Assembly (NCBI RefSeq): GCF_004010195.1
Contig: NC_057751.1
Location: 4,767,615 to 4,787,614 of the forward strand
Length of the DNA stretch: 20,000 bases
Direction of reading: 5' to 3'
DNA from: Chiloscyllium plagiosum
Lineage: Eukaryota
In this document: positions 1 through 20,000 of the stretch, in pieces
Layout of the letters: each line of letters opens with the position of its first letter
Position numbering within the stretch: the stretch's first letter is position 1
Notes under the pieces: generated by a model
Seen by the model: the letters and a program-made list of their open reading frames with translations, nothing else
What the model was told of the DNA's origin: nothing
Database searches by the model: none
Made by a program: the position numbers and the translations under genes

Positions 1-82
1 GAGCAGTGCTCTGGATAAACCTGTTGGTGTTGTGATTTTTAACTTTGTCCACCCCAGTCCAACACCAGCTCCTCCACATCAT
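1..82 (+). mobile_element. Truncated fragment of a second Penelope-type pseudo-LTR repeat family
   Basis: gagcagtgctc hairpin followed by taaacctgttggtgttgtgatttttaactttgtccaccccagtccaacacc matches a recalled shark repeat that carries a hammerhead motif. The 5' core would lie left of the window and the GAAA segment is missing. Confidence 0.5.
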
Positions 83-290: not shown

Positions 291-334
291 CATCAGCTGA
301 GATAAATGTCAGCCTTGGCATGTCCTAAAATTCG

Positions 335-684
335 ACAGAGTCATAGAGTCATACAACATGGAAACAAACCCTTTGGTCTAACTCATCCGTGCTGAACAAA
401 ACATCCAATCTGACCTAGTCCCATTTGCCAGCACTTGATCCATATCCCTGTAAACCCTTCCTATTCATATACCTATCCAAACTCCTTTCAAATGTTGGAA
501 TTGTACCCACCTCCACCACTTCTTCCAGCAGTTCACTCCATACCTGCACCACCTTCTGTCCCTCAGGTCCCTTTAAATCTTTCCCCTCTCATCTTAAACT
601 ATGTCCTTTACTTTTGGAATCCCCCATCCTCGGAAAAAAGATCTTGGCTTTTCAACCTATGCAAACCCTTCATGATTTTACAAA
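335..684 (-). mobile_element. CR1 LINE 3' fragment
   Basis: (catagagt)n tail at 335-352, CR1 3' UTR and ORF2 C-terminal sequence (ccacctccaccacttcttccagcagttcactcca) on the reverse strand. Confidence 0.85.
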
Positions 685-1006
685 TAGTGGGTCAGAACTT
701 GTCACATGGAATATAAAAGGTGGGAAAATGGCAAGTTATGCACTTGGCTGTTTCTAACTGAAATCTTTCTCAATTTAAATGATATTTTACTCATCTATTC
801 TTCCAGTCACAGAGGGGATTGAGGGTCCTCATTCAGAAATCACAACAGGTTGGCATGCAAGTTCAGGTGGTAAGAGGGCAGGCAAATTATATGTTAGTCA
901 TTATTTCAAAGGAAATTAAGTATAAAATAGCAAAGTCCTGCAATAATTATACAAGGAACTAGTTAGATCACACCAAGAAAATTATGAATAGATCTAGTCC
1001 CCTTAT

Positions 1007-1145
1007 TCCCCTTAGATTCCTGATGAAGGTCTTATGCCTGAAATGTCAATTCTCCTGCGCCTCGGATGCTGCCTGACTTGCTGTGCTTTTCCAGTGCCAC
1101 ACTCTTGTCTCTGAGCTCCAGCATTTGCAGTCCTCACTTTCTCTC
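1007..1145 (+). mobile_element. Short Penelope pseudo-LTR-type element with hammerhead motif and 10-bp TSD
   Basis: gtccccttat at 997-1006 and 1146-1155; body ctgatgaagg...gatgctgcctgacttgctgtgcttttccag shared with the copies at 2870, 7831, 8201 and 8294. Confidence 0.85.
1016..1050 (+). ncRNA. Minimal type I hammerhead ribozyme motif (partly decayed)
   Basis: AUUC-CUGAUGA(1020-1026)-[AGGU cuuau GCCU]-GAAA(1040-1043)-UGUC-AAU; catalytic core intact, stem I and III positions altered by apparent CpG decay. Confidence 0.6.
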
Positions 1146-1519
1146 GTCCCCTTATCTAAAGAAAAGATATACTGGCTTTGGAGGCAGGCCAGAGAAGGTT
1201 CACTGTGTTGATCCCAAGCATGGAGGGATTTTATGAGAAGAGATTGAGCCAATTGGGCCGAGAGTCTGAGGAGTTCAGAAAAATGGGACCTGAGCTTGCT
1301 GCATGCAATGTTCAAGATTCTGAAGGGACTTAACAGGGTAGAGGTTGTTTCTCCTTGTGGGAGAGTCGAGGACCAGATGGTGTAATCTCAGAATTAGGGG
1401 TTTCTTACTTAAAATACAGGTGAGGGGAAATAGCACAGTGAAACTATGGAATTCTTTGCCACAGCGGACTGTAGAGATCATGTCCTTAAATATATTCAAG
1501 GATGGAACCAAGAAAAAAA

Positions 1520-1660
1520 GTTTGCATTTATATAATGACATTCATGACCTGAAGATGTCCCAAAGACGTTCACAGCCAATGAATGAATGTTTGAAATGCA
1601 GTCACTGTCATTATGTTGCAAGCTCCTACACAACATCAGTGTGAAAATTACTGGATCAGT
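1520..1660 (-). mobile_element. Deu-domain SINE (SacSINE1-like) 3' fragment
   Basis: ttgcatttatata...gatgtcccaaagacgttcacagccaatgaa...tgcagtcactgt; same family as 7401-7814. Confidence 0.7.
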
Positions 1661-2551
1661 TGTTGTTAAGTATTTGGCAGGGAGTTAATACAATCTATAA
1701 GTGAAGATGCCATTTGTTTCCTGTGCTTCTGAATTTGTTTATTCACAATTTCAGACTTGGTAACCACAAAATCTCTCCAAAGGCTACAGTTATTAACCTC
1801 TTCCGATTGAGCCTTCATTGTTATCTAGGTTTATGATTCCAGAATGAAATCCCTTGGAAGAAGAATCTGCTGTGCAGCCACACTCAGAGTCGCTGTCCAC
1901 AGTGCAATCCTCCAACTCTCAGATCAAAACTGGGAGGAGTTGATTCCCTACTGAATTGATAGCCAGCCACAAAAGAAACAAGGCTGCTGCTTCTCTGTGT
2001 AGAGAAGGGATGTTCCACCCAGATGAACCTGAATGATAATACTCAGCAGAGACAAGAATAAGGCCGTTGTGAATGGTGAACCTGCTACCAGCAGCTTCAA
2101 ACCCAGTGCCAGTGTGGGACATGGTACATTGACTCCCAATGACCAGCTCATCAAACACTGATGTTTGCTCTCACGCAGATGGGCATCCCTTGCAGGTTTC
2201 ATTTTAATTTGTAAAAGTAAATACACTTTGTTATTTCCTGCATTGTGCAACCTTGAGGACCAGGAGAAGAAGTGCACAGTTGTAATCTCTCCCTTTATGC
2301 TCCATGAGTGTGTGAAAGAACCGGTCAGAGCGTGTCTGTTTGCACAACACTGAGTCTGTACTTGCTGTCTCTTTCCCTTTAGCAGCCTGGGTTTGTTTGC
2401 CTTTTCCTCTCTGTCAAAAAGTAACCATTTTCAACAACTCATTACCTCTAACAATTGATGTCCTGGCCTTCTTGCCATTCCTTTTGTTATCTGCAAATAA
2501 CAATTCAACAGGTGCCTGGAGAGATTGTAAGTGTCTGCACAAACACTAAGG

Positions 2552-2836
2552 ATCACGGTGGCACAGTGGTTAGCACTGCTGCCTTACAGCACCAGAGATC
2601 AGGGTTCAATTCCTGCCTCGGGCAACTGACTGTGTGGAGTTTGCATATTCTCCCCGTGTCTGCGTGGGTCCCCTCCGGGTTTCCTCCCACAATCCAAAAA
2701 TGTGCAGGTCAGGTGAATTGGCCATGCTAAACTGCCCGTAGTGTTAGGTGAAGGGGTAGGGGTGGGTTGCGCTTCAGCGGGTCAGTGTGGACTTGTTGGG
2801 CCGAAGGGCCTGTTTCTACACTGTAAGTAATCTAAT
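2552..2836 (+). mobile_element. HE1-type tRNA-derived SINE (V-SINE), near full length
   Basis: Pol III box A tggcacagtgg (2559-2569), box B ggttcaattcc (2603-2613), central tgtgtggagtttgcatattctccccgtgtctgcgtggg, CR1-like tail ttgggccgaagggcctgtttctacactgtaagtaatctaat; possible 7-bp TSD atcacgg (2552-2558/2837-2843). Confidence 0.92.
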
Positions 2837-2869
2837 ATCACGGAGGGCAACAAACACTTCACCAAAACC

Positions 2870-2965
2870 CTCATTCCTGATGAAGGGTTTATGCCCAAAA
2901 CATCGATTCTCCTGCTCCTCAGATGCTGCCTGACCTGCTGTGCTTTTCCAGCATCACATTGCTCG
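2870..2965 (+). mobile_element. Short Penelope pseudo-LTR-type element with 9-bp TSD and mutated hammerhead
   Basis: accaaaacc at 2861-2869 and 2966-2974; CUGAUGA at 2877-2883, stem GGGU uuau GCCC, but GAAA reads AAAA and GUC reads AUC. Confidence 0.85.
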
Positions 2966-3071
2966 ACCAAAACCAAGGCCAATGTTGGCTCCTGTGGTTT
3001 TCACTGCAGTCCCTTCCTCATCTCCTCCCACACATTCGGCACCACAAGCTCTTGGTGTTACTTCTGAAGCA

Positions 3072-4785
3072 ATAACATAGAAACATTGAAAACAAAAGCA
3101 GGAGGAGGCCATTCAGCCTTTCAAACATGCTCTGCCATTCAATGCAATCACGGCTGACCATCCAATCCAATACTCTGTTCCCACTGTCTTGCCCATAAAC
3201 TTAGTTCTCTTCAGCCCAAAGAACTACATTTTACTTCTGCTTGAAAAAAATTCAAAGTTATGGCTTCAACTGGTTTCTGTGACAGAGAATTCCACAGTCT
3301 CACTATTCTCCAGGTGAAGACATTTCTCCTCATCGCAGTTCAAAATGGCCTACAGAGTGTCCTCAGACTGTGACCTGTGCTTCTGGACTCCTCAGTCTTT
3401 GGGAAAACTCTGTGTGCATTTACCCTGTCTCGTCTTGTTCACATTTTGTAAGGTTCTGTGAGATCTCCCCTGCCCCTCAGTCTGAACTCCAACGAAAAGA
3501 GTACAACGCCATTCAATCTCTCTTAATAATACATCAGCCCTGCCATCGCAGGAATCAGACTGGTAAACTTTCACTGCACTCCCTCCAAAATCAGACCATC
3601 CATCTTCAAATAAGGAAGCAAAACTACACACAATATTCTTGGCATGGTCGCACCAAGGTCCAGTACAATTGCAGCAAGACAACCCTGCTCCTGTACTTGA
3701 ATTCTCCCAATGTGAAAGTTTACCTTCTTCCCCACCTGCTGCATCTACATGCTTACTTTCGACAACAAGTGCACAAGGATCTGGTCTTGTTGCACCTCCC
3801 CCTTTCCAAGTCTATTGCTATTCAGGTATTAATCTGAATTTATTGAATTTATTGTCACGTGTACAGAGGCACAGTGAAAAGCTTTGTCTTGCGAGCAATA
3901 CAGGCAGATCACAGAGTTAAGTAGCATAGGTAAGTTAATATTAGGTAAACAGCAGCAAACACAAAAACACAGGTACAGGTGAGTGTTGAGAGTTTGTGAG
4001 TCCATTCAGCATTCTAACAACAGTATGGTAGAAACGGTTACAAAACCAGCTGGTGCTTCTGTACCTTCTCCCCGATGGTAGAGGTTGGAGAAAAACATTG
4101 CCAAGGTGGGATGGATCTTTGAGAATGCTGGCGGCCTTTCCTTGACAGCGAGCCTGGTAGATGGATTCTATAGATGGGAGGTTGGCCTTTGTGATTGTCC
4201 GGGCTGAGTTCACCACTCTCTGCAATGTTCTCTGATCTTAAATTGTACAGTTGCCATACCAGATAGTAATACATTCAGACAGAATGCTCTATATGGCGCA
4301 CCTATAAAAGTTGGCAAGGATATTCGCCGTCATGCCAAACTTCCTCAGCTGCCTGAGGAAGAAGAGACATTGTTGGGCCTTTGTAACCAGTGCGTCCATA
4401 TGAAGAGTCCAAGAAAGCTTGTTATGGCTGCTCCCAGGAGTTTGACACTCTCCACTCGTTCCACCTCTGTGCTGTTAATGTGTAGTGGGGGGGATGAGTA
4501 ACATCCCGCTGAAAGTCAATAATGAGTTCCTTGGTTTTTCTGGCATTGAGAGTTAGGTTGTTCTCAGTGCACTATTTTTCCAGGTCTTCCACCTCCTGTC
4601 TGTAGTCTGTTTCATCGCCAGCTGAGATTCAACTGACAATGGTGGTGTCATCAGCCAACTTGTAAATGGCATTAGTCTAGTGTCTGTCTGCTCGTTTCTT
4701 GCTGCCGAAATGAATAACCTCACATTCATCGATATTATACTTCATCTGTCATCTTCATACTGCCCACTCACTCCAGTTGTCGAGT
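3072..4785 (-). mobile_element. CR1 LINE 3' fragment split by a Rex1/Babar insertion (pieces 3072-3835 and 4679-4785)
   Basis: Tail aacatagaaacattgaa, 3' UTR gcaggaggaggccattcagcc, ORF2 sequence; CR1 sequence resumes at 4679 (gaataacctcacatt...ctgcccactcac). Confidence 0.85.
3836..4678 (-). mobile_element. Rex1/Babar-clade LINE, 5'-truncated, comparatively young
   Basis: Reverse translation IYKLADDTTIVS*ISAGDETDYRQEVEDLEK*CTENNLTLNARKTKELIIDF (RT catalytic motif) and C-terminus QRVVNSARTITKANLPSIESIYQARCQGKAASILKDPSHLGNVFLQPLPSGRRYRS; (aataaattc)2 tail. Confidence 0.88.
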
Positions 4786-5199
4786 TAACAGCAGCAGGAA
4801 GCCTTCAGTTCACAACTCTGGAATTTGGTGAGACGGACTGGCATTGTCTGGAGATCTATGGCATAGGCAACAGGGAAGGATTGGATAAGTGGGCCCAAGG
4901 TGTGATTGGATCCGGAAGGCCTGGGTTGGAGTAGGGTGAAATGGGCTCAAACTGGGAGATGTGGGTGGGAAGGGGCAATCTCTACATGTCCAACATGTGT
5001 TCAGGACACTGAGGCAGCAATCCATGGCTCACAAGGAATTTGTTCAATGAGCAATACCCCTTCAGAACAATAGAAATTATATACCACAGCCTTCATTAAG
5101 AATGCTGACAAGGTTTACTCTGTCACTTCTCAGTTTGTTTATATACTAAATCAGAACATCTAACACTTGGATGTGGGGGAAGTATGACAAAATATTGCC

Positions 5200-5377
5200 C
5201 ACGAACTCACAGAAATCACAACACCATCCTGGACAAAGCAGCCCACTTGACTGACACCACATTCATAAACATGGGCTCCCTTCACCACCAACGCACAATG
5301 GCAACACGGTCTATGTGTCATCTACAAGATGTCCAATTTCAGTGCAACAATTCAGTAAGGCTCTTTCAATGACATCC
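5200..5377 (+). mobile_element. Fragment of a distinct CR1/L2-superfamily LINE (ORF2 C-terminal region)
   Basis: TILDKAAHLTDTTFINMGSLHHQRTMA resembles the recalled 'IQDKAARLIG....SLHHRR.VA' LINE motif. Confidence 0.6.
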
Positions 5378-5954
5378 TGCCTCGAGCCAACTGCATTTTC
5401 CATATGCTTTGAAGAGTCTTCAAATAAACTAATTCCTGTCTCTGAAGGTCAGACTCAAAAGTCAAGCCTCCAAGTTTATAAACTGAACCAGATGCCACAC
5501 TCCATTAAATGTGCTCTAACCTTCAACAGCAAAGTCATAACAACTACCACTTACCAGGTAAAGCAGCTTGGAGGGAAGATCAACTTGAGGCCACGTGCAA
5601 GTGACAGACTGTAGAACATCCAAGATACACAATGTAATTTCCTTGCATGTCTGTTCTCCATAGCCACAACCATTAGTTTCCACTCTTTCTGCAGTCTCTC
5701 TGTGCAGTTAGTTTCAATCACTTGCATGTGACGTAACCAAGCAAAACCTGTGGATTACTGATGTAGTCAAATGAACGATCCCAGAAGATAAAATTAGCAC
5801 CACAGATCAACGGGAGATCAGACTTTGTGAAAGAAATGACCCAGGGGATCACATCCACCAATCTGTCTCAGACGACATGCCACCTGTCCCTACTCATAAA
5901 CACTTCCAGATCTCTCTTCAATCTATCAGTCTGAGTTCATCCTGCCAGGCAGTT

Positions 5955-6030
5955 CGAGGAATAGCAACAGTGGGATTGGAACCAGGAACTTGAGGACTCC
6001 AAGACAGTGCTACACACCAACTGACCAAGA
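5955..6030 (-). mobile_element. tRNA-derived SINE head remnant
   Basis: Reverse strand reads ttggtcagttggtgtgtagcactgtc...ggttccaatcccac, i.e. degenerate box A and box B. Confidence 0.4.
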
Positions 6031-6194
6031 CAGGGCCACTGTTCCCTTGGGTTCTATCCACATCAAGGATGTGACTGTGATGGGCTGGAGTGAGGTGGGC
6101 TGGAGGCATGGAGCAGAGTGGGATGGTTGTTGGACTTTGGAGATAGGCTTAGGCAGTTATCAGCTTGCAAGGCTGGTCAGACCACGTGTGGAAA

Positions 6195-6477
6195 CACCTG
6201 CACTGATCTACTGCAATGTCATGTTCACCTGTAATCTGTTTATCTGACTATAATGCTCATCCTTTTAACTAGATGTCTTATTTTCTAACTTGTACTATAA
6301 ATTGCTGTGAGGTAATGTAACCTTTTTCTTCTTTATTTCTCTTTTTTCTGTCTTGGATTTGTACCATTGTACTTTGTACCTAAGATGGCCATGTGAGGGG
6401 CAACATTGTAAACTTTTCACTATATTCCTGTATTTCAAGACCTGAGTACATTTGACATTAAAACCTAATTGTAATTC
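6195..6477 (+). mobile_element. LINE 3' UTR fragment, Rex1/Babar-like tail
   Basis: Ends aaacttttcact...gagtacatttgacattaaa, similar to the tail of the 3836-4678 element (aagcttttcactgtg...gtacacgtgacaataaa). Confidence 0.5.
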
Positions 6478-6482
6478 CAATT

Positions 6483-6890
6483 GAGAGGGTGGAGATGATG
6501 CGACTGCTCTCCTTGAAGAGGAAGAGGCTGAGAGGAGATTCAATGCATCTCAGGAGTGGTCAGGGCAGAGTGGGTAGGGAGAAACAGATCCCACTCGCAA
6601 ACAGATCAAGTAACAGATATCACAAAAGGAGCAAGCAGCAATGTGAGAAAACTCTTTTTCACACACTGAGTTGTCAGTTAGGGTCTGGAGTGGAACGCCT
6701 GGAAATATGGTGAAGGCAGGTTCAAAGTAAGCATTTAAGAGGGTACTCAATGATAACAAATAAAAACAAAGCACACTGCTATAAGGTAAAGGCAGGAGAT
6801 TGGCACTCAATGAAAATGCTGAGAGAGAGGTAGAGTGGACAGGGTGAGCCAAATGGCCTCCTTCTGCATCTTAACAGTTCTCAGATTCTA
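6483..6890 (+). mobile_element. CR1 LINE 3' end (old)
   Basis: LLSLKRKRLRGD (CR1 LFSLE.RRLRGDL motif), tttttcacacactgagttgt, 3' stem-loop gagccaaatggcctccttctg and attct tail. Confidence 0.8.
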
Positions 6891-7400
6891 CGTTCTCACA
6901 TCATTCCATTGTCAGGTCCCTGGTAAGCTTGACAGCTCATCCTCCCCCATCACTTTTATTGAGGTCATTTCTCCAGATGAACAAACTGATCCAGCCCCAG
7001 CCAAATGTTTCCCCACTGTGATCTGATTGCAAGGCTCAAAAGTTACCATGTGCCTGGAGGGAGGGGTCTGTGATAATGGCAGCACAGCGTTATGACACTG
7101 TTGGAGCTGTACAGTGGCTGGTACTGTCTCAAAGTTTGCCATGCCAACATTTCACTGACTGTCCCACCAAGAGCTACCTCCTTAACCCCCGCATCACCCA
7201 GCCCAGCACCCCTCCCCCCACTCTGAGTAACTTGTTGGCTATTGCTGCACCTTCAGCATGTGGAGTTTGAGAGGTGAAAATCCCTTGGGCTTTCTTGAAA
7301 CCATTAACATTAACTCTTTCTTCCCTCAGCAATGGATAAGAGTTTGGCATTTTTACTTCAACCTGATCCTTACTTTTGACATTCCATTTCAAAGAAAGAT

Positions 7401-7814
7401 GTGCATTTATGTTGCATGTTTACTGCTATGTGACAAAGAGCATAGCAGCTCATGAGTACCATTTGAACTCAGTCACTATTGTAATGTTGGAAAACACAGC
7501 AGCCAATTTGCAGAAAGCAAACTCCCAAAACGAGTTTTGGGATCAATGGTCGGATCATCTCATCCTGGTGATGTCAATTGAGTAATCAATATTGGACAGA
7601 GCACCCAAGAGAACTCCCCAGCTCTTCTGCAAGGCCAGCTTTTCCATCCTCCTGAAGGAGTGGTCGTGGCTTCGTTGCAGAGACAGCATCTTTGACAGTG
7701 CAGCACACCTTCAGCACTGTATTGGGAGGGTGATGCAAACGCTGGAAGCAGAATTAAATCGAGAACCTCAGAACTCAGAAACAAGAATGTCACCGACTCA
7801 ATTTCAGTTGACAC
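7401..7814 (-). mobile_element. Deu-domain SINE (SacSINE1-like), near full length, old
   Basis: cagtcactattgtaatg, gcagccaatttgcagaaagcaaactccca, aatattggacagagcacccaagagaactcccc, ttgacagtgcagcacaccttcagcactg and a decayed tRNA head, in the expected order. Confidence 0.75.
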
Positions 7815-7830
7815 AGTTAAGCTGCTCCTG

Positions 7831-8167
7831 TGGTAAAAACAAGGACTGCAGATGCTGGAAACCAGATTCTGGATTAGAGTGGTGCTGGAAAAGCACAGCA
7901 GGTCAGGCAGCATCCGAGGAGCAGGAAAATTGACGTTTCAGGCAAAAGCCCTTCATCAGGAATACAGGCAGGGTGCCTGCAGAGCGGAGAGATAAATGAG
8001 AGCGGGGTGGGGAGATAGTATGACCTTGGGGTTACAGTGAGAGAGAGACTCAATGAGATTCTTGTAGAGAGAGGAGGAAAACTTCTTCAAGGCAGGCATC
8101 CTTGCAAGAGGATTCGCAATAGGGTTAAAATCAACTTGGTAAAAACAAGGACTAGGGCAGATGCTGG
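7831..8167 (-). mobile_element. Internally deleted Penelope-like element: pseudo-LTR with hammerhead, short internal remnant and terminal redundancy (306-bp period)
   Basis: Direct repeat tggtaaaaacaaggact(..)gcagatgctgg at 7831-7858 and 8137-8167; hammerhead at 7928-7963. Confidence 0.8.
7928..7963 (-). ncRNA. Minimal type I hammerhead ribozyme motif (best-preserved core)
   Basis: Reverse strand AUUC-CUGAUGA-A-[GGGC uuuu GCCU]-GAAA-C-GUC-AAUU; palindromic ACGU in place of stem III; first stem I pair mismatched. Confidence 0.7.
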
Positions 8168-8200
8168 TGTCCACTGAGACTAGTGTGAAAGATGAAGTAT

Positions 8201-8404
8201 TGAGAGTGTGGTGCTGGAATAGCACAGCAGGTCAGACAGAACCCCAGGAGCAGGGGATTCAACATTTCGGGATTACGTCCTTCATCAGGAATACCCAAAA
8301 CGTTGATTCTCCTGCTCCTGGGGTGCTGCCTGACCTGCTGTGCTTTTCCAACACCACGCTCTCAACTCTGATCTCCAGCATCTGCACTCCTCATTTCCCC
8401 TCCC
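8201..8404. mobile_element. Inverted pair of Penelope pseudo-LTR fragments inserted as one unit, 15-bp TSD
   Basis: Arms 8200-8271 (-) and 8294-8365 (+) are reverse complements sharing the variant ccccaggagcagg; TSD tgaaagatgaagtat (8186-8200) / tgaaagattaagtat (8405-8419). Confidence 0.85.
8257..8292 (-). ncRNA. Minimal hammerhead ribozyme motif
   Basis: Reverse strand AUUC-CUGAUGA-A[GGA cguaa UCC]C-GAAA-U-GUU-GAAU; stem I AUUC/GAAU pairs perfectly. Confidence 0.6.
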
Positions 8405-8419
8405 TGAAAGATTAAGTAT

Positions 8420-8699: not shown

Positions 8700-9807
8700 T
8701 GGCAGAACAATTAAATACCTATTTGAATTCTGTCTTCACAGAGGAAGACACAAATAACGTCCCAAATATATAAGGGAACTCAGGGCTTAATAGCAATGGA
8801 AATTAAATCAAGATTAGACAAGAGATGGGGCTGGGCACATTAATGTATTTGAAGGCTGATAAATCCCCAGACCTTGACATGTGGTTAGCATGCAAAATTA
8901 TGTGGGAGGACTGCATTGAATGAAGAATTGGTTGACACACAGGAAACAAAGTGAAGGATATATGTCTTTTTCCAACCAGCATGGGACTGCAAGGATCAGT
9001 GCTTGGACCCCATCTATTTACAGCAATATATAAATGATTTAAATAATCAAACTGTATGTCATAGCTGCAAAACTGCAGATGACACAAAGCTGGGTGGGTG
9101 GGTTAGCTTTGAGGAGGATGCAGAGAAGAAGCTTCAGTGTGATTTGTACAAGTCAGTGGCAAATGTTTGGCAGATAAGTATAATGTAAATAAATATGAGG
9201 TTAATCACTTTGATGGGAGATTTTTATTTGAACGGTGATAGATTGGGAAAGGGGCAGGCACAACCAGACCTAGCTGTCTTCTTACAGCACTCACTGAAAG
9301 AAAGAATGCAGATGCTGTCGGTGGTGAAGAAGGCAAAGGGTATATCGGCCTTCATGGTGAGAGAGTACAGGAGCAGGGATGTCTTGGTGCAAATTATATT
9401 CGGCCTTGTTGACACCACACCTGGGGTCCTGTGTGCAGTTCTGGTGTCTTTTTCTCAGGAAAGGTGTTCTGCAGTAGAAGGAGTGCAGCAATGGTTTACC
9501 AGACTGATTCCTGGGATAGCAGGATTGATGTATGTCGAGATGTTGAATCAGGAGTGATAGTCTTAGGATAAGACCTTTAGAATAGAGATGAGTAAGCATT
9601 TCTTTACGCTGAGTGTGGTGAGCCTGTGGACCTCTCTCCAACAGAAAGTGATCGAAACCAAAACACAGAATGTTTTCAAGATGGCGTTTTTGGGGCTATG
9701 GGGAGAAAGTCGCAACAGGGTACTGAGTTGGCTGATCAACCATGATCATATGAAATGGAGGTACAGGCTTGTGAAGGGCTGCGTGGTCTAATCCTACATT
9801 CTATGTT
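8700..9807 (+). mobile_element. CR1 LINE ORF2 fragment with an internal deletion near 8880
   Basis: YLNSVFTEED, LKADKSPD, QGSVLGP, YINDL..KTADDTKLGG, FFTLSVVSLWTSLQQKV, then 3' UTR and ttctatgtt tail. Confidence 0.9.
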
Positions 9808-13514: not shown

Positions 13515-16500
13515 TTGCACTGTAAATAAGGAGATCACACAGCCAGAGTTAGACACAGCCTGAGTGAATATATAGCTCGGGGAATTTGGAGGCAGTGTGG
13601 GAATTTATTGCAAAGGGGAAGAGGTGTTTTTTTGTTGGCTTTTCTTTTGGCTCATAGTTTGTAGGGTTTTGTTTTACTCAAGATAAATTTAAACCCTAGA
13701 TCAGAAGCCCAACACTAAAGAGGGACATTATAGCTGAGCTGGTGTCGATGTCCCATGAATTCAAACTGGTTTCTATGGTGGAATGGGCTCAACTTGAATC
13801 CTGCTGGGACCAGAGTCCTGGCAAATTGCCTACCTAGGGCTGTGGGCAGGGCTTTCAACTAAATGCCTGAGAGTGGGATGTGCGGTTGTCAGAAAATTAT
13901 GGAAGATGTTCAATGGAGAGGGGGCTCAGGAGAGGTTCTACAAATTTTCCAGAACAAGGATTAGGACAGAAAGTCTGGAAAGGGTCAGGAATATAACTTC
14001 AGGTACAGGAGATAAGGAGACAATAATGAGCAAAAGGGCAGTCAATGCAAGACTGGGTGTATTGAACAGAAATACACATGGCGTACAAAACAAGGGAAAC
14101 AGACGGAAATTGGCAAGTGCAATGTTGTAAATATCACAGAGACAGGAGTGCAGATGGATCTGCGCTGGGAACGAAATAACCGAGGATACATGTCATATCA
14201 AAAGAACAGGGAGAAGGGTAGAGGGGACAGGGTTGCCTCATCAGAAAGAAAAGAAATTAAACCAACAGTAAGAAACCAAACAGTCAGAAAGCTGACAATC
14301 TGTGTGCTTCGAGTTGAGGAACAACAAAAGCAAGATCACCATAATACAAGACAATGCATCCTGCAACTCCAAAGGAAGAAGCTGGAATCAGATGGAACAA
14401 TATTACATTTGATAAAGGTAACTGCAAAGGCATGAGGGAGGGGAGCTGACCAAACTTGATTAGAAGGGGAATCTGCAGGAAAACATTGGAGTAGCAATGC
14501 TAAGAGTTTCTAGGGTAACTCAGAAGGCACAGCAGAAATTCATCTCAAGGAAGAAGCATACTAAGGGAAGGACAAGGTAACCACAGCTGACAAGGGAAGT
14601 CAGGGACAACATAAAAACCAAAAGAAAAACATGCAATGTGGTGAAGATTTGTGGGAAGCTGGATGGTTAAGAAGCCCTTAAAAACCAGCAGAAGACAATT
14701 AAAAAAAAGCAACAGCAAGTGCAAGGGATGGTGAAATACGAGCAAAAGCTCACTAGTAAAATAAAATTGCAAGATTTTTTTTTAGTACGGACTGGATTAG
14801 GGAGCTGATGGTGAAGGAGCCCCGAGGGGACAATGACCAATAATATGATCAAATTGACCCTGCAGTTTGGGAGAGAGAAGCTGGAATCAGATGGGACGGC
14901 ATTACAGCTGAGTAAAGGAATGACAAGAACACCAGGGAATCAATTGGAAGGCGTGCCCCTGCAGGGAGGACATTGGAACAGCAATGCTACACATTTCCAG
15001 GGTAATACGGAAGGCACATCAGACCCATTCATCCCAAGGAACAGACTCAGGGTAGGACGAGGCAACCATGGCTAATGAGGGAAGTCAGGGGACAAGATAA
15101 AAACCAAAAGAAAAACATGCAATCTGGTGAAAGTTAGTGGGAGGCAAAGGATTGAGAAGCCTTTAAAAGAATAGTTAGAAAGCACTAAGGGAAGAGAAGG
15201 TGAAATATGAGCATATGTTAGCTCATAATTCAAAAAAAAATTGTTTTTTTTAAATATTTAAAGGTAAGTGAGAGAGGCAAGAGGGGAGATTTTAACCACT
15301 GGAATTTGAGGCTATAGAAGCAGCAATGGGAAACAAAGGTGTGGCAGATGAATCGATTAGAAACTTGGCATCAATTTTCACAGTGGAAGACTCCAGCAGC
15401 ATACCAGAACTTCAAGAGTCAGGGGGCAGAGCTGAGTGTTGTGGCCAGCACTAAGGTGGTGCTGGGGAACTGAAACTGAAGCTGGATAACTCACCAGTAC
15501 AAGTTAGACCACGCCCCAGAGTTGTGAGGGAGATAGCGGAGGAGATCGCAGAGACATTGGCGATGATTTTTCAGGAATCAATGGAGTCAGGGAGGGTCTC
15601 AGTGGAGTGGAAAATGGCCAATTTAAGACCCCTGTTTAAGAAGGGAGGGAAGCAGAAGATGGAAATTTATAGGCCAGTTAGCCTGACCTTGGTCATTGGG
15701 AAGATTTGAGAGTCCATTATTAAGGATGAGATTGCAGAGTTTTTGGAAATGCGTGGTAAAATATGGCTCCGCCATAAGGGGGCCATGCCTAACAAATTTG
15801 TTAGGAATTCTTTGGGGAGGTAACAAGCACTTTAATCAAAGGAGAACCAGTAGATATATTTGAATTTCCCAAAGGCCTTTGACAAAGGGCTACCCAAAGG
15901 GCCCATGGCAGGAGGGGCAAGCACAGAAGACTGCCTGACTGGCAGAAGGCAGAGTGTGGAAATAAGAGTCTTTTTGAGGACAGCAGCCTGTGGCTAATGG
16001 ATTTGCACAAGGGTCATGTGGGACAACTGTTCACATTATAATTTACCGATCTGGGCCAAGGAACTGGTGGCATTGTTGCTATATTTGCAAATGACACAAA
16101 CAGAGGTGAAGGGACAGATAGTGTTGAGGAAGCAGGGAGTCTGCAGAAGGATGTGAATGCCTCTGCAGAAGGCTCAGAGGGTGGGCAAAGATGTGGCAGA
16201 TGATATACAATGTGGGAAAGTGCGAGGTTATGTAGTTTGGCAGGAAGAATAGAGGTGTAGACTATTTTCTAAATGGGGAAAGATTTCAAAAGTCTGAAGC
16301 ACAAAGGGATTTTGGAGTCCTAGATCAGGCTGCAGGTTCAGCTGGCAGTTAGGAAAGCAAATGCAACGTTAGCATGCATTTCAAGAGAGGGAGAATACAA
16401 AAGCAGGGACATAGTGCTGAGACTGTATAAGGCTCTGGTCAAACCGCATTTTGTACATCATGAGCAGCTTTGAGTTCTGTGTTAGCATTGGAGGAGATCC

Positions 16501-16925
16501 AGAGGAAGTTTAGGAGAGTGATTCACAGTATGGAGGGTTTGTCATACATGGGATGAATGAGGACTCTGGGTGTGTTCCTGATGGAGTTTGGAACGATGAG
16601 GCAAGGTGATGGAGAACATATAAGAAATTGAGAGGACAGGCTAGAGTGGAGATGGAAAAGATGCTTCCACTAATTAGAAAGACGAGGGCACAGCGTCAGT
16701 GTGAAGAAATGACCCTACTAAACTAAGATGAGGAGGGATTTCTTCAACCAGAGGGTGGTGAAGCGAGGGAACTCATTGCTGCAAGTTATTGAGAGTAGTG
16801 CAAAGCAGAGACAGATGTGTTCTGGATCAAGGGTTACAGGAACAAAGCAGGAGAATGAGGTTGCAAAACTATCAACTATAATTGACAAGACAGAAGAACC
16901 CAACTCTACACCTATATCTTATGGT
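13515..16925 (+). mobile_element. Near-full-length decayed CR1 LINE (5' UTR, ORF1 esterase C-terminus, ORF2 APE-RT, 3' UTR) with internal duplication
   Basis: 13782-13862 NGLNLNPAGTRVLANCLPRAVGRAFN* (ORF1 SGNH-type DGLHLN block); APE remnants (NVVNITET); RT REIAEEIAETLAMIFQES..WKMANLRPLFKKG..YRPVSLT; FANDT at ~16084; MRRDFFNQRVV; tail tcttatggt. Confidence 0.9.
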
Positions 16926-19897: not shown

Positions 19898-19898
19898 T

Positions 19899-20000
19899 CT
19901 CTCTCTCCCTCCCTCCCGTGCCGCTCTCTCTCTCTCTCCCTCCCTCCCGTGCCGCTCTCTCTCCCTCCTTCCCTCCCGTGCCGCTCTCTCTCTCTCTCCC
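19899..20000. repeat. Compound CT-rich minisatellite, ~30-bp unit (ct)n-ccctccctcccgtgccg, runs off the window
   Basis: ccctcccgtgccgctctctctc occurs three times at ~28-32 bp spacing. Confidence 0.95.

What the first reader, a model, noticed from the sequence alone, without database searches (positions are those of the whole stretch)
1007..8404. Family of ~100-200-bp hammerhead-bearing elements that appear to insert as discrete units
Seen: five related copies (1007-1145, 2870-2965, 7831-7963, 8201-8292, 8294-8404). Four contain ATTC-CTGATGA-A-hairpin-(G/A)AAA-Y-RTY. Three insertions have TSDs (10, 9 and 15 bp), and in three copies homology stops within a few bases of the ribozyme's 5' stem-I strand. 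Established: CUGANGA/GAAA/NUH is the hammerhead core, and Penelope-like elements carry minimal type I hammerheads in their pseudo-LTRs. Inference: copy ends may reflect ribozyme processing of the RNA template, or these are SINE-like ribozyme-only retroposons mobilised in trans. Ordinary 5' truncation of Penelope copies is the alternative.
Basis: partly seen in the sequence, partly recalled or inferred. Interest (0 to 1): 0.7.

Follow-up and report, generated by a model that had tools for sequence, protein, structure and literature searches.

The report
Penelope stubs stop before their ribozyme
These short repeats are end-pieces of a known kind of jumping gene (Penelope-like), and close to half of them begin just in front of its small hammerhead-ribozyme motif rather than at the motif's predicted cut site, likely because the copying enzyme starts near the front of the element's RNA and runs off its end.

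Summary
The five copies and three target-site duplications are real. They are not a separate ribozyme-only family. They are short insertion products of a Neptune-type Penelope-like element (RT plus GIY-YIG parent); 286 arms lie in 1.35 Mb of random genome. Copies 4 and 5 are one head-to-head insertion; copy 3 extends into the parent's 3' UTR. The end clustering is real: 113 of 253 arms end at -7..+5 around the CUGA core, about 12 times the per-base rate on either side, and simulation shows no calling artefact. The predicted cut site, 28 bases downstream, shows no excess over the adjacent +6..+25, so ribozyme cleavage does not set the ends. A second family repeats the wall (37 of 74); a third lacks it (0 of 18). 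Best reading (about 60%): transcription starts at this spot, about 30 bases below a TATA-like element; RT primes internally at about +90 or +125 and runs off the RNA's 5' end. No start site was mapped, and a cap-G test was negative. The scan noted this pattern before (14 findings, at least 2 genomes); I did not find it in print.

The parts
1007..1145 (+). Copy 1: single tailed arm from -4 to about +125, preceded by 9 extra bases (8 repeat target sequence, then one G)
997..1006 (+). Left TSD of copy 1 (10 bp; right copy 1146-1155)
1016..1052 (+). Decayed minimal hammerhead motif of copy 1 (core starts at 1020; predicted cut after 1047)
2870..2965 (+). Copy 2: single tail-less arm from -7 to about +88; G12 lost
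2861..2869 (+). Left TSD of copy 2 (9 bp; right copy 2966-2974)
7831..8012 (-). Copy 3: tailed arm that extends about 54 bases into the parent's 3' UTR, including the AT-rich patch and initiator-like sequence
8020..8167 (-). Upstream partial-tandem piece of the copy 3 unit: tail (+99) through the start of the parent ORF (+243); no TSD seen
8201..8294 (-). Copy 4: inverted tail-less arm (-5 to about +88) of a head-to-head insertion
8291..8404 (+). Copy 5: tailed arm (+14 to about +125) of the same insertion; overlaps copy 4 by about 3 bases at the junction
8186..8200 (+). Left TSD of the copy 4+5 insertion (15 bp, one mismatch; right copy 8405-8419)

Best explanation
The repeats are short insertion products of a Neptune-type Penelope-like retrotransposon, and their 5' ends pile up at the front edge of the hammerhead motif, likely because the element's RNA starts there and the reverse transcriptase, primed only about 90 or 125 bases downstream, runs off it. 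Shown: parentage, two preferred 3' ends, the 5' wall at -7..+5, no excess at the predicted cut site, one-long-one-short head-to-head pairs with TSDs. Inferred: a pseudo-LTR promoter (AT-rich or TATA element about 30 bases upstream, pyrimidine-A initiator at -4) starts the RNA. Inferred by analogy with the Anolis element: the RT-endonuclease binds near the RNA's 5' part, nicks both target strands and primes at two internal sites; the tailed and tail-less cDNAs run to the RNA's 5' end and join the target or each other through microhomology. The product resembles retroviral strong-stop DNA inserted directly. Copies reaching further upstream would come from tandem read-through RNA, a template jump or a circle. 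Stubs are likely dead, because in the Anolis element the RNA needed for activity extends beyond the priming site, which stubs lack.
For: Parent: L161 shows ORF start, RT N-terminal part, Cys linker, GIY-YIG, UTR, hammerhead and tail in order; L152 has the RT YIDD and GIY-YIG motifs, with Pfam GIY-YIG above cutoff for the isolated domain and RVT_1 below cutoff. Wall: 113 of 253 arms; 0.070 per base vs 0.0057 at -8..-140 and 0.0059 at +6..+60; it is present in single arms (39 of 115), inverted arms (74 of 138) and arms at 93% identity or more (61 of 126). Leave-one-locus-out simulation: 33 true vs 27 called ends in the window, 3 of 226 longer ends miscalled to -12..+12. Further sets: 11 of 29 young copies at -6..+8; 11 of 39 incidental arms. 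Family G: 37 of 74 at -13..+5, with TATAAA at about -38; family F has a TATA box at -35; subfamilies A-D have an AT-rich patch at about -38..-31. Pairs: 51 of 69 are long+short, 40 of 69 have a TSD of 8 bp or more. PMC11167929: RT starts at two internal sites, product length follows the template's 5' end, hammerhead mutants still insert. PMC2377424: the Drosophila Penelope transcript starts within the pseudo-LTR.
Against: No transcription start was mapped. No extra G at the junction (6 of 25 vs 7.2 expected). Reads from 2% of one single-cell run of a relative show no pile of molecule starts, though that is not a real test. Family H has a TATA-like box at about -47 but no wall (0 of 18 at -7..+5, one at -21). 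Copies that run on into the ORF start end further upstream, 11 of 36 at -5..-16, which a single start at -4 does not explain. The AT-rich patch in A-D is a poor TATA match; the TATA and initiator consensus and spacing are recalled, not from a call. Windows were chosen after seeing the data, and arms of a pair are not independent.
Confidence: 0.6

Rival explanations
1. The template continues upstream, but RT stops at -4 because of RNA structure or a bound protein at the 5' foot of the ribozyme fold.
For: The wall coincides with the 5' strand of stem I. Subfamily A has a predicted 5-6-bp hairpin at about -20..-6, and ORF-bearing A copies end inside it. No cap-G. The Anolis ribozyme is protein-assisted (PMC11167929).
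Against: RT meets the 3' foot of a fold first (+28..+33), where there is no excess over +6..+25. Subfamily B has no such local hairpin in its predicted fold but has the same wall (mode -3/-4). Family H has a hammerhead and no wall. The monomer folds are weak. [quoted passage not shown]
Confidence: 0.2
2. Short non-autonomous masters that begin at -4 are transcribed and mobilised in trans, like a SINE.
For: Very high number of short copies (about 210 arms per Mb). Drosophila Penelope has an internal promoter downstream of its start (PMC2377424).
Against: Short copies are not closer to each other than to long copies (105 short, 46 long; same-label neighbour 0.60 vs 0.574, p=0.245); the three largest identical haplotype groups each hold a long copy; no shared host flank among 83 short single arms apart from element sequence. 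The same fold-back junction occurs with the tail on either arm, which points to independent events. The Anolis minimal RNA needs sequence beyond the priming site.
Confidence: 0.12
3. Hammerhead self-cleavage of the RNA template defines the copy ends.
For: The motif is conserved with covariation across families. A few copies start exactly at +28: L247, with a flush 11-bp TSD, L222 and L095. The +26..+32 rate is 3.2 times that of +33..+60, but shorter arms are under-detected there.
Against: Cleavage gives a 5' end at +28 and a 3' end at +27; observed walls are at -4, about +90 and about +125. No excess over +6..+25 (ratio 0.92, p=0.65). Anolis: uncut RNA is the main substrate (PMC11167929).
Confidence: 0.05
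4. Ordinary random 5' truncation, with the peak produced by reference mismatch or palindromic microhomology.
For: The motif is more conserved than the UTR, so unpanelled subfamilies look truncated there (six arms were reassigned). Recurrent microhomology junctions sit at -3/+2 and -1/+9.
Against: The simulation shows no pile-up. The wall holds in high-identity arms and in single arms without an inverted partner, and in family G, which has a different sequence.
Confidence: 0.03

Closest known systems
EN+ Penelope-like elements, Neptune (or Nematis) clade; insertion units described in PMC8557442 and PMC3846280
   Same: RT plus C-terminal GIY-YIG with Cys linker; 5'-truncated copies, partial tandems, adjacent inverted copy, optional 30-40-bp tail, TSDs.
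   Different: The passages I read describe 5' truncation as variable; here 45% of arms end in a 13-base window. Neptune vs Nematis was not resolved (no tree).
Minimal type I hammerheads of metazoan PLEs (PMC4209133)
   Same: CUGANGA core, extra base after position 9, short stem I, palindromic remnant of helix III; mostly single dispersed motifs; a U3-A8 variant also occurs here.
   Different: Sharks are not named in the parts I read. Cleavage was not tested here; the window's five copies are decayed.
Anolis Poseidon PAc (PMC11167929)
   Same: Two internal RT start sites about 110-120 bases past the ribozyme, both target strands extended, cleavage not needed for insertion.
   Different: Different clade; there the ORF starts in stem II, here about 165 bases downstream. 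The text I read does not map genomic 5' ends; Fig. S2 could not be seen.
Non-LTR retrozymes (PMC7229834; bioRxiv 10.64898/2026.07.22.740005)
   Same: Non-coding, type I hammerhead, PLE-related, TSDs longer than 4 bp.
   Different: Retrozymes are head-to-tail tandem repeats expressed as circles; these are solo or head-to-head arms with one motif each.

Membership tests
EN+ Penelope-like element (parent) | ORF with RT and C-terminal GIY-YIG endonuclease, contiguous with the repeat | tested here: met
   L161 is contiguous from ORF to hammerhead. L152: GIY-YIG 23.2 bits vs cutoff 22.6 for the isolated domain; RVT_1 E=0.007, below cutoff. Four other fragments gave no Pfam hit. All copies seen are broken.
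EN+ Penelope-like element (parent) | Pseudo-LTRs in direct or inverted arrangement with optional 30-40-bp tail | tested here: met
   3' ends bimodal about 35 bases apart; 51 of 69 pairs long+short; partial tandems.
Neptune/Nematis clades | [quoted passage not shown] | tested here: met
   CxxC within the GIY-YIG motif in L152; full linker read from L161 DNA and in fragments; L152 has substitutions at two linker cysteines.
Neptune clade | RT phylogeny | not tested
   No reference PLE proteins were held.
Minimal type I hammerhead | Core, stems I and II with covariation, palindromic helix III remnant | tested here: met
   67 hits vs 0 in three shuffles; stems covary between families, not within the main one. 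The window's copies fail the strict descriptor.
Minimal type I hammerhead | Self-cleavage | not testable with these tools
   Needs an in vitro assay.
Non-LTR retrozyme | Head-to-tail tandem units each with a hammerhead | tested here: not met
   No such tandem array in the window; short copies are solo or head-to-head. Internally deleted two-motif units exist elsewhere.
Non-LTR retrozyme | Expression as circular RNA | not testable with these tools
   No suitable RNA run of the organism was listed.
SINE-like non-autonomous lineage | Own master sequences distinct from the autonomous element | tested here: not met
   Nearest-neighbour test p=0.245 on 77 bases; limited resolution.

The most novel reading that the evidence does not exclude
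Some vertebrate Penelope-like elements load their reverse transcriptase near the 5' end of their own mRNA, so the default product is a strong-stop-like stub of 95-130 bases, roughly 0.7 million of which fill this genome. Full-length copying would need a retrovirus-like strand transfer, tandem read-through or a ribozyme-made circle, which makes the hammerhead, placed a few bases after the start site, a candidate switch between abortive and productive copying. The stubs would then be a fossil map of start sites and priming sites for each family.
Probability: 0.3. Interest if true: 0.65.

Novelty: new member of a known kind. Interest (0 to 1): 0.42.

Why it matters
How Penelope-like elements regenerate their pseudo-LTRs, and what their hammerhead does, are open questions (PMC2377424, PMC4209133, PMC11167929). 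A sharp, family-dependent 5' wall gives an in vivo constraint: most insertions were copied through an intact cut site and stopped just upstream of the motif. It predicts a start site to within a few bases and a defined short cDNA, both easy to test. The elements themselves are ordinary repeats.

Tried and rejected
Rfam at E<=5: only chance microRNA and lncRNA matches. Pfam on four parent fragments: nothing. PDB sequence search: nothing significant. The Atlas gave DUF8422 clusters, some members with RVT_1; a lead only. Two own-genome searches with subfamily B queries returned nothing, which the tool says shows nothing. No RNA holder listed. Read-laying: one raw run gave no reads; the other (2% read, a relative) showed no place where many molecules begin. 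Its depth step and loose ends at -4 are confounded by subfamily divergence upstream and are not counted as support. Cap-G test negative; a post hoc look had suggested a G excess among ends at -3/-4, and I dropped it. The first family G run used a reference with an inverted arm upstream and was redone. A further random sample for a hold-out test could not be obtained, so 145 kb of flanks of held loci were used; these are not fully random. Supplements of PMC11167929 gave no text hits for four terms; its Fig. S2 may already show genomic end profiles. bioRxiv supplements were not seen.
Full report
Coordinates: 0 is the C of the CUGA core, so the A of ATTC is -4 and the first base after the predicted cut is +28. 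An arm is one homologous segment; a head-to-head insertion has two. The genome is 3.56 Gb. That it is a shark is a recalled resemblance, not a tool result.

Observation. The five copies, the motif text and the three TSDs are as described. Copies 4 and 5 share one 15-bp TSD and form one head-to-head insertion with a tail-less and a tailed arm. Copy 3 extends 54 bases into the parent's 3' UTR and is preceded by a tail-plus-ORF-start piece. All five motifs are decayed: none passes a strict descriptor that finds 67 motifs in 140 random stretches and none in three shuffles. Across families the stems covary, the helix III remnant is palindromic, and one family swaps C3-G8 for U3-A8, as described for minimal PLE hammerheads (PMC4209133, parts 1-2 of 4 read).

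Parent. Longer copies run upstream through a pyrimidine-rich UTR into GIY-YIG and RT coding sequence, and downstream into an ORF start. L161 holds the whole order in one locus, with an internal deletion. L152 has the RT catalytic motif and a GIY-YIG domain at Pfam's cutoff; RVT_1 scored below cutoff, and four other fragments gave no hit. The Cys linker points to Neptune or Nematis (PMC8557442, passages). No tree was made.

End map. I took 140 10-kb stretches, 138 at arbitrary positions and 2 beside the window, 1.347 Mb without N. Ends were called against 41 natural long copies, excluding the arm's own locus. This gave 286 arms, roughly 0.7 million by extrapolation. I dropped 19 arms of a distant family and 14 at gaps or edges, and treated 6 as longer than called. 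Of 253, 113 end at -7..+5 (mode -4/-3): 0.070 per base against 0.0057 upstream and 0.0059 downstream. The wall holds in single arms (39 of 115), inverted arms (74 of 138) and arms at 93% identity or more (61 of 126). By subfamily, ends at -12..+12 are A 53 of 91, A2 4 of 14, B 65 of 106, B2 13 of 20, C 10 of 33. In 420 simulated truncations there was no pile-up. The windows were chosen after seeing the data, and paired arms are not independent. Two further sets agree more weakly: 11 of 29 young A2 copies at -6..+8, with 13 reaching -34 or beyond, and 11 of 39 incidental arms, in a table with two duplicated rows.

Cut site. The window +26..+32 holds 14 ends, 0.92 times the rate at +6..+25; it is 3.2 times the rate at +33..+60, where short arms are under-detected. 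Three arms start exactly at +28, so a minor cleaved template is possible. Cleavage does not explain the main wall.

3' ends and pairs. 3' ends cluster at about +85-95 and about +125. Of 69 head-to-head pairs (one is the window's), 51 join a long and a short arm and 40 have a TSD of 8 bp or more. Single arms have such a TSD in 23 of 99 cases against 3 of 98 with swapped flanks. This matches the tail and inverted pseudo-LTR of PLEs (PMC3846280, PMC8557442, passages) and the two internal RT start sites on both target strands shown for Anolis PAc (PMC11167929, parts 1, 2 and 4 of 4 read; supplements searched without hits).

Why the wall. In family G, 37 of 74 arms end at -13..+5 and one at -14..-40, with TATAAA at about -38. 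Family F has a TATA box at -35, and A-D have an AT-rich patch at about -38..-31 before a pyrimidine-A at -4. By recalled promoter spacing this predicts starts at about -8 and -4. In PAc the product length follows the template's 5' end, and hammerhead mutants still insert; the Drosophila transcript starts inside the pseudo-LTR (PMC2377424, parts 1-3 of 4 read). I therefore favour run-off from the RNA's 5' end. Against it: no cap-derived G (6 of 25 vs 7.2); family H has a TATA-like box and no wall (0 of 18, three references only); ORF-bearing A copies end at -5..-16 (11 of 36 usable, from 48 loci), inside a predicted hairpin; and no RNA start data exist here.

SINE and retrozyme readings. Short and long copies share haplotypes, and the same junction appears with the tail on either arm. 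The stubs are not tandem units as non-LTR retrozymes are (PMC7229834, passages; bioRxiv 10.64898/2026.07.22.740005, part 1 of 5 and passages).

Novelty. The kind of element is known. Nine literature searches showed no report of 5' ends piling at the hammerhead's front edge; the library lacks most subscription papers, and figures were not visible. PMC6155905 and PMC12029980 were seen as passages and add background only. The scan's own notes hold the same pattern and reading in 14 findings; I stated my reading before opening them, and they are not independent support.

Verdict: real, ordinary in kind, with one real and testable regularity. Interest 0.42.

Noticed in passing
window 1-82: 3' end, with tail, of a second hammerhead-bearing Penelope-like family (family G here), cut by the window edge.
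   Followed up: partly
L196:4824 (+), L054 near 369 (+), L069 (-): Hammerhead cores with U3-A8 in place of C3-G8; family F also has a perfect 4-bp stem I and a canonical TATA box 31 bases before the A at -4.
   Followed up: partly
L154, L156, L159, L162, L165, L169: Internally deleted units with two hammerhead regions about 530-680 bases apart and differing junctions; they could yield dimer-competent, retrozyme-like RNAs.
   Followed up: no
L206, L049, L104 and related loci (family H): A hammerhead-bearing family with the same two 3' ends but mostly long copies and no 5' wall; clade untested.
   Followed up: partly
L071, L107, L205, L222, L199, L108; L087, L095: Recurrent fold-back junctions at -3/+2 and -1/+9 with 2-3 bases of microhomology, with the tail on either arm.
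   Followed up: partly
window 2549-2840: High-copy short repeat (up to 115 matches in the sample); looks like a shark SINE by recall.
   Followed up: no
window 331-685, 3074-3911, 8975-9800, 14340-16783: Recurrent repeats, by recall CR1-like LINE fragments; the last includes a roughly 486-bp duplication.
   Followed up: no
window 19898-20000: 29-31-bp pyrimidine-rich tandem repeat at the window end.
   Followed up: no
window 1007-1015; L052, L213, L099: Extra bases between TSD and element often copy the target or a short inverted piece of the element.
   Followed up: no
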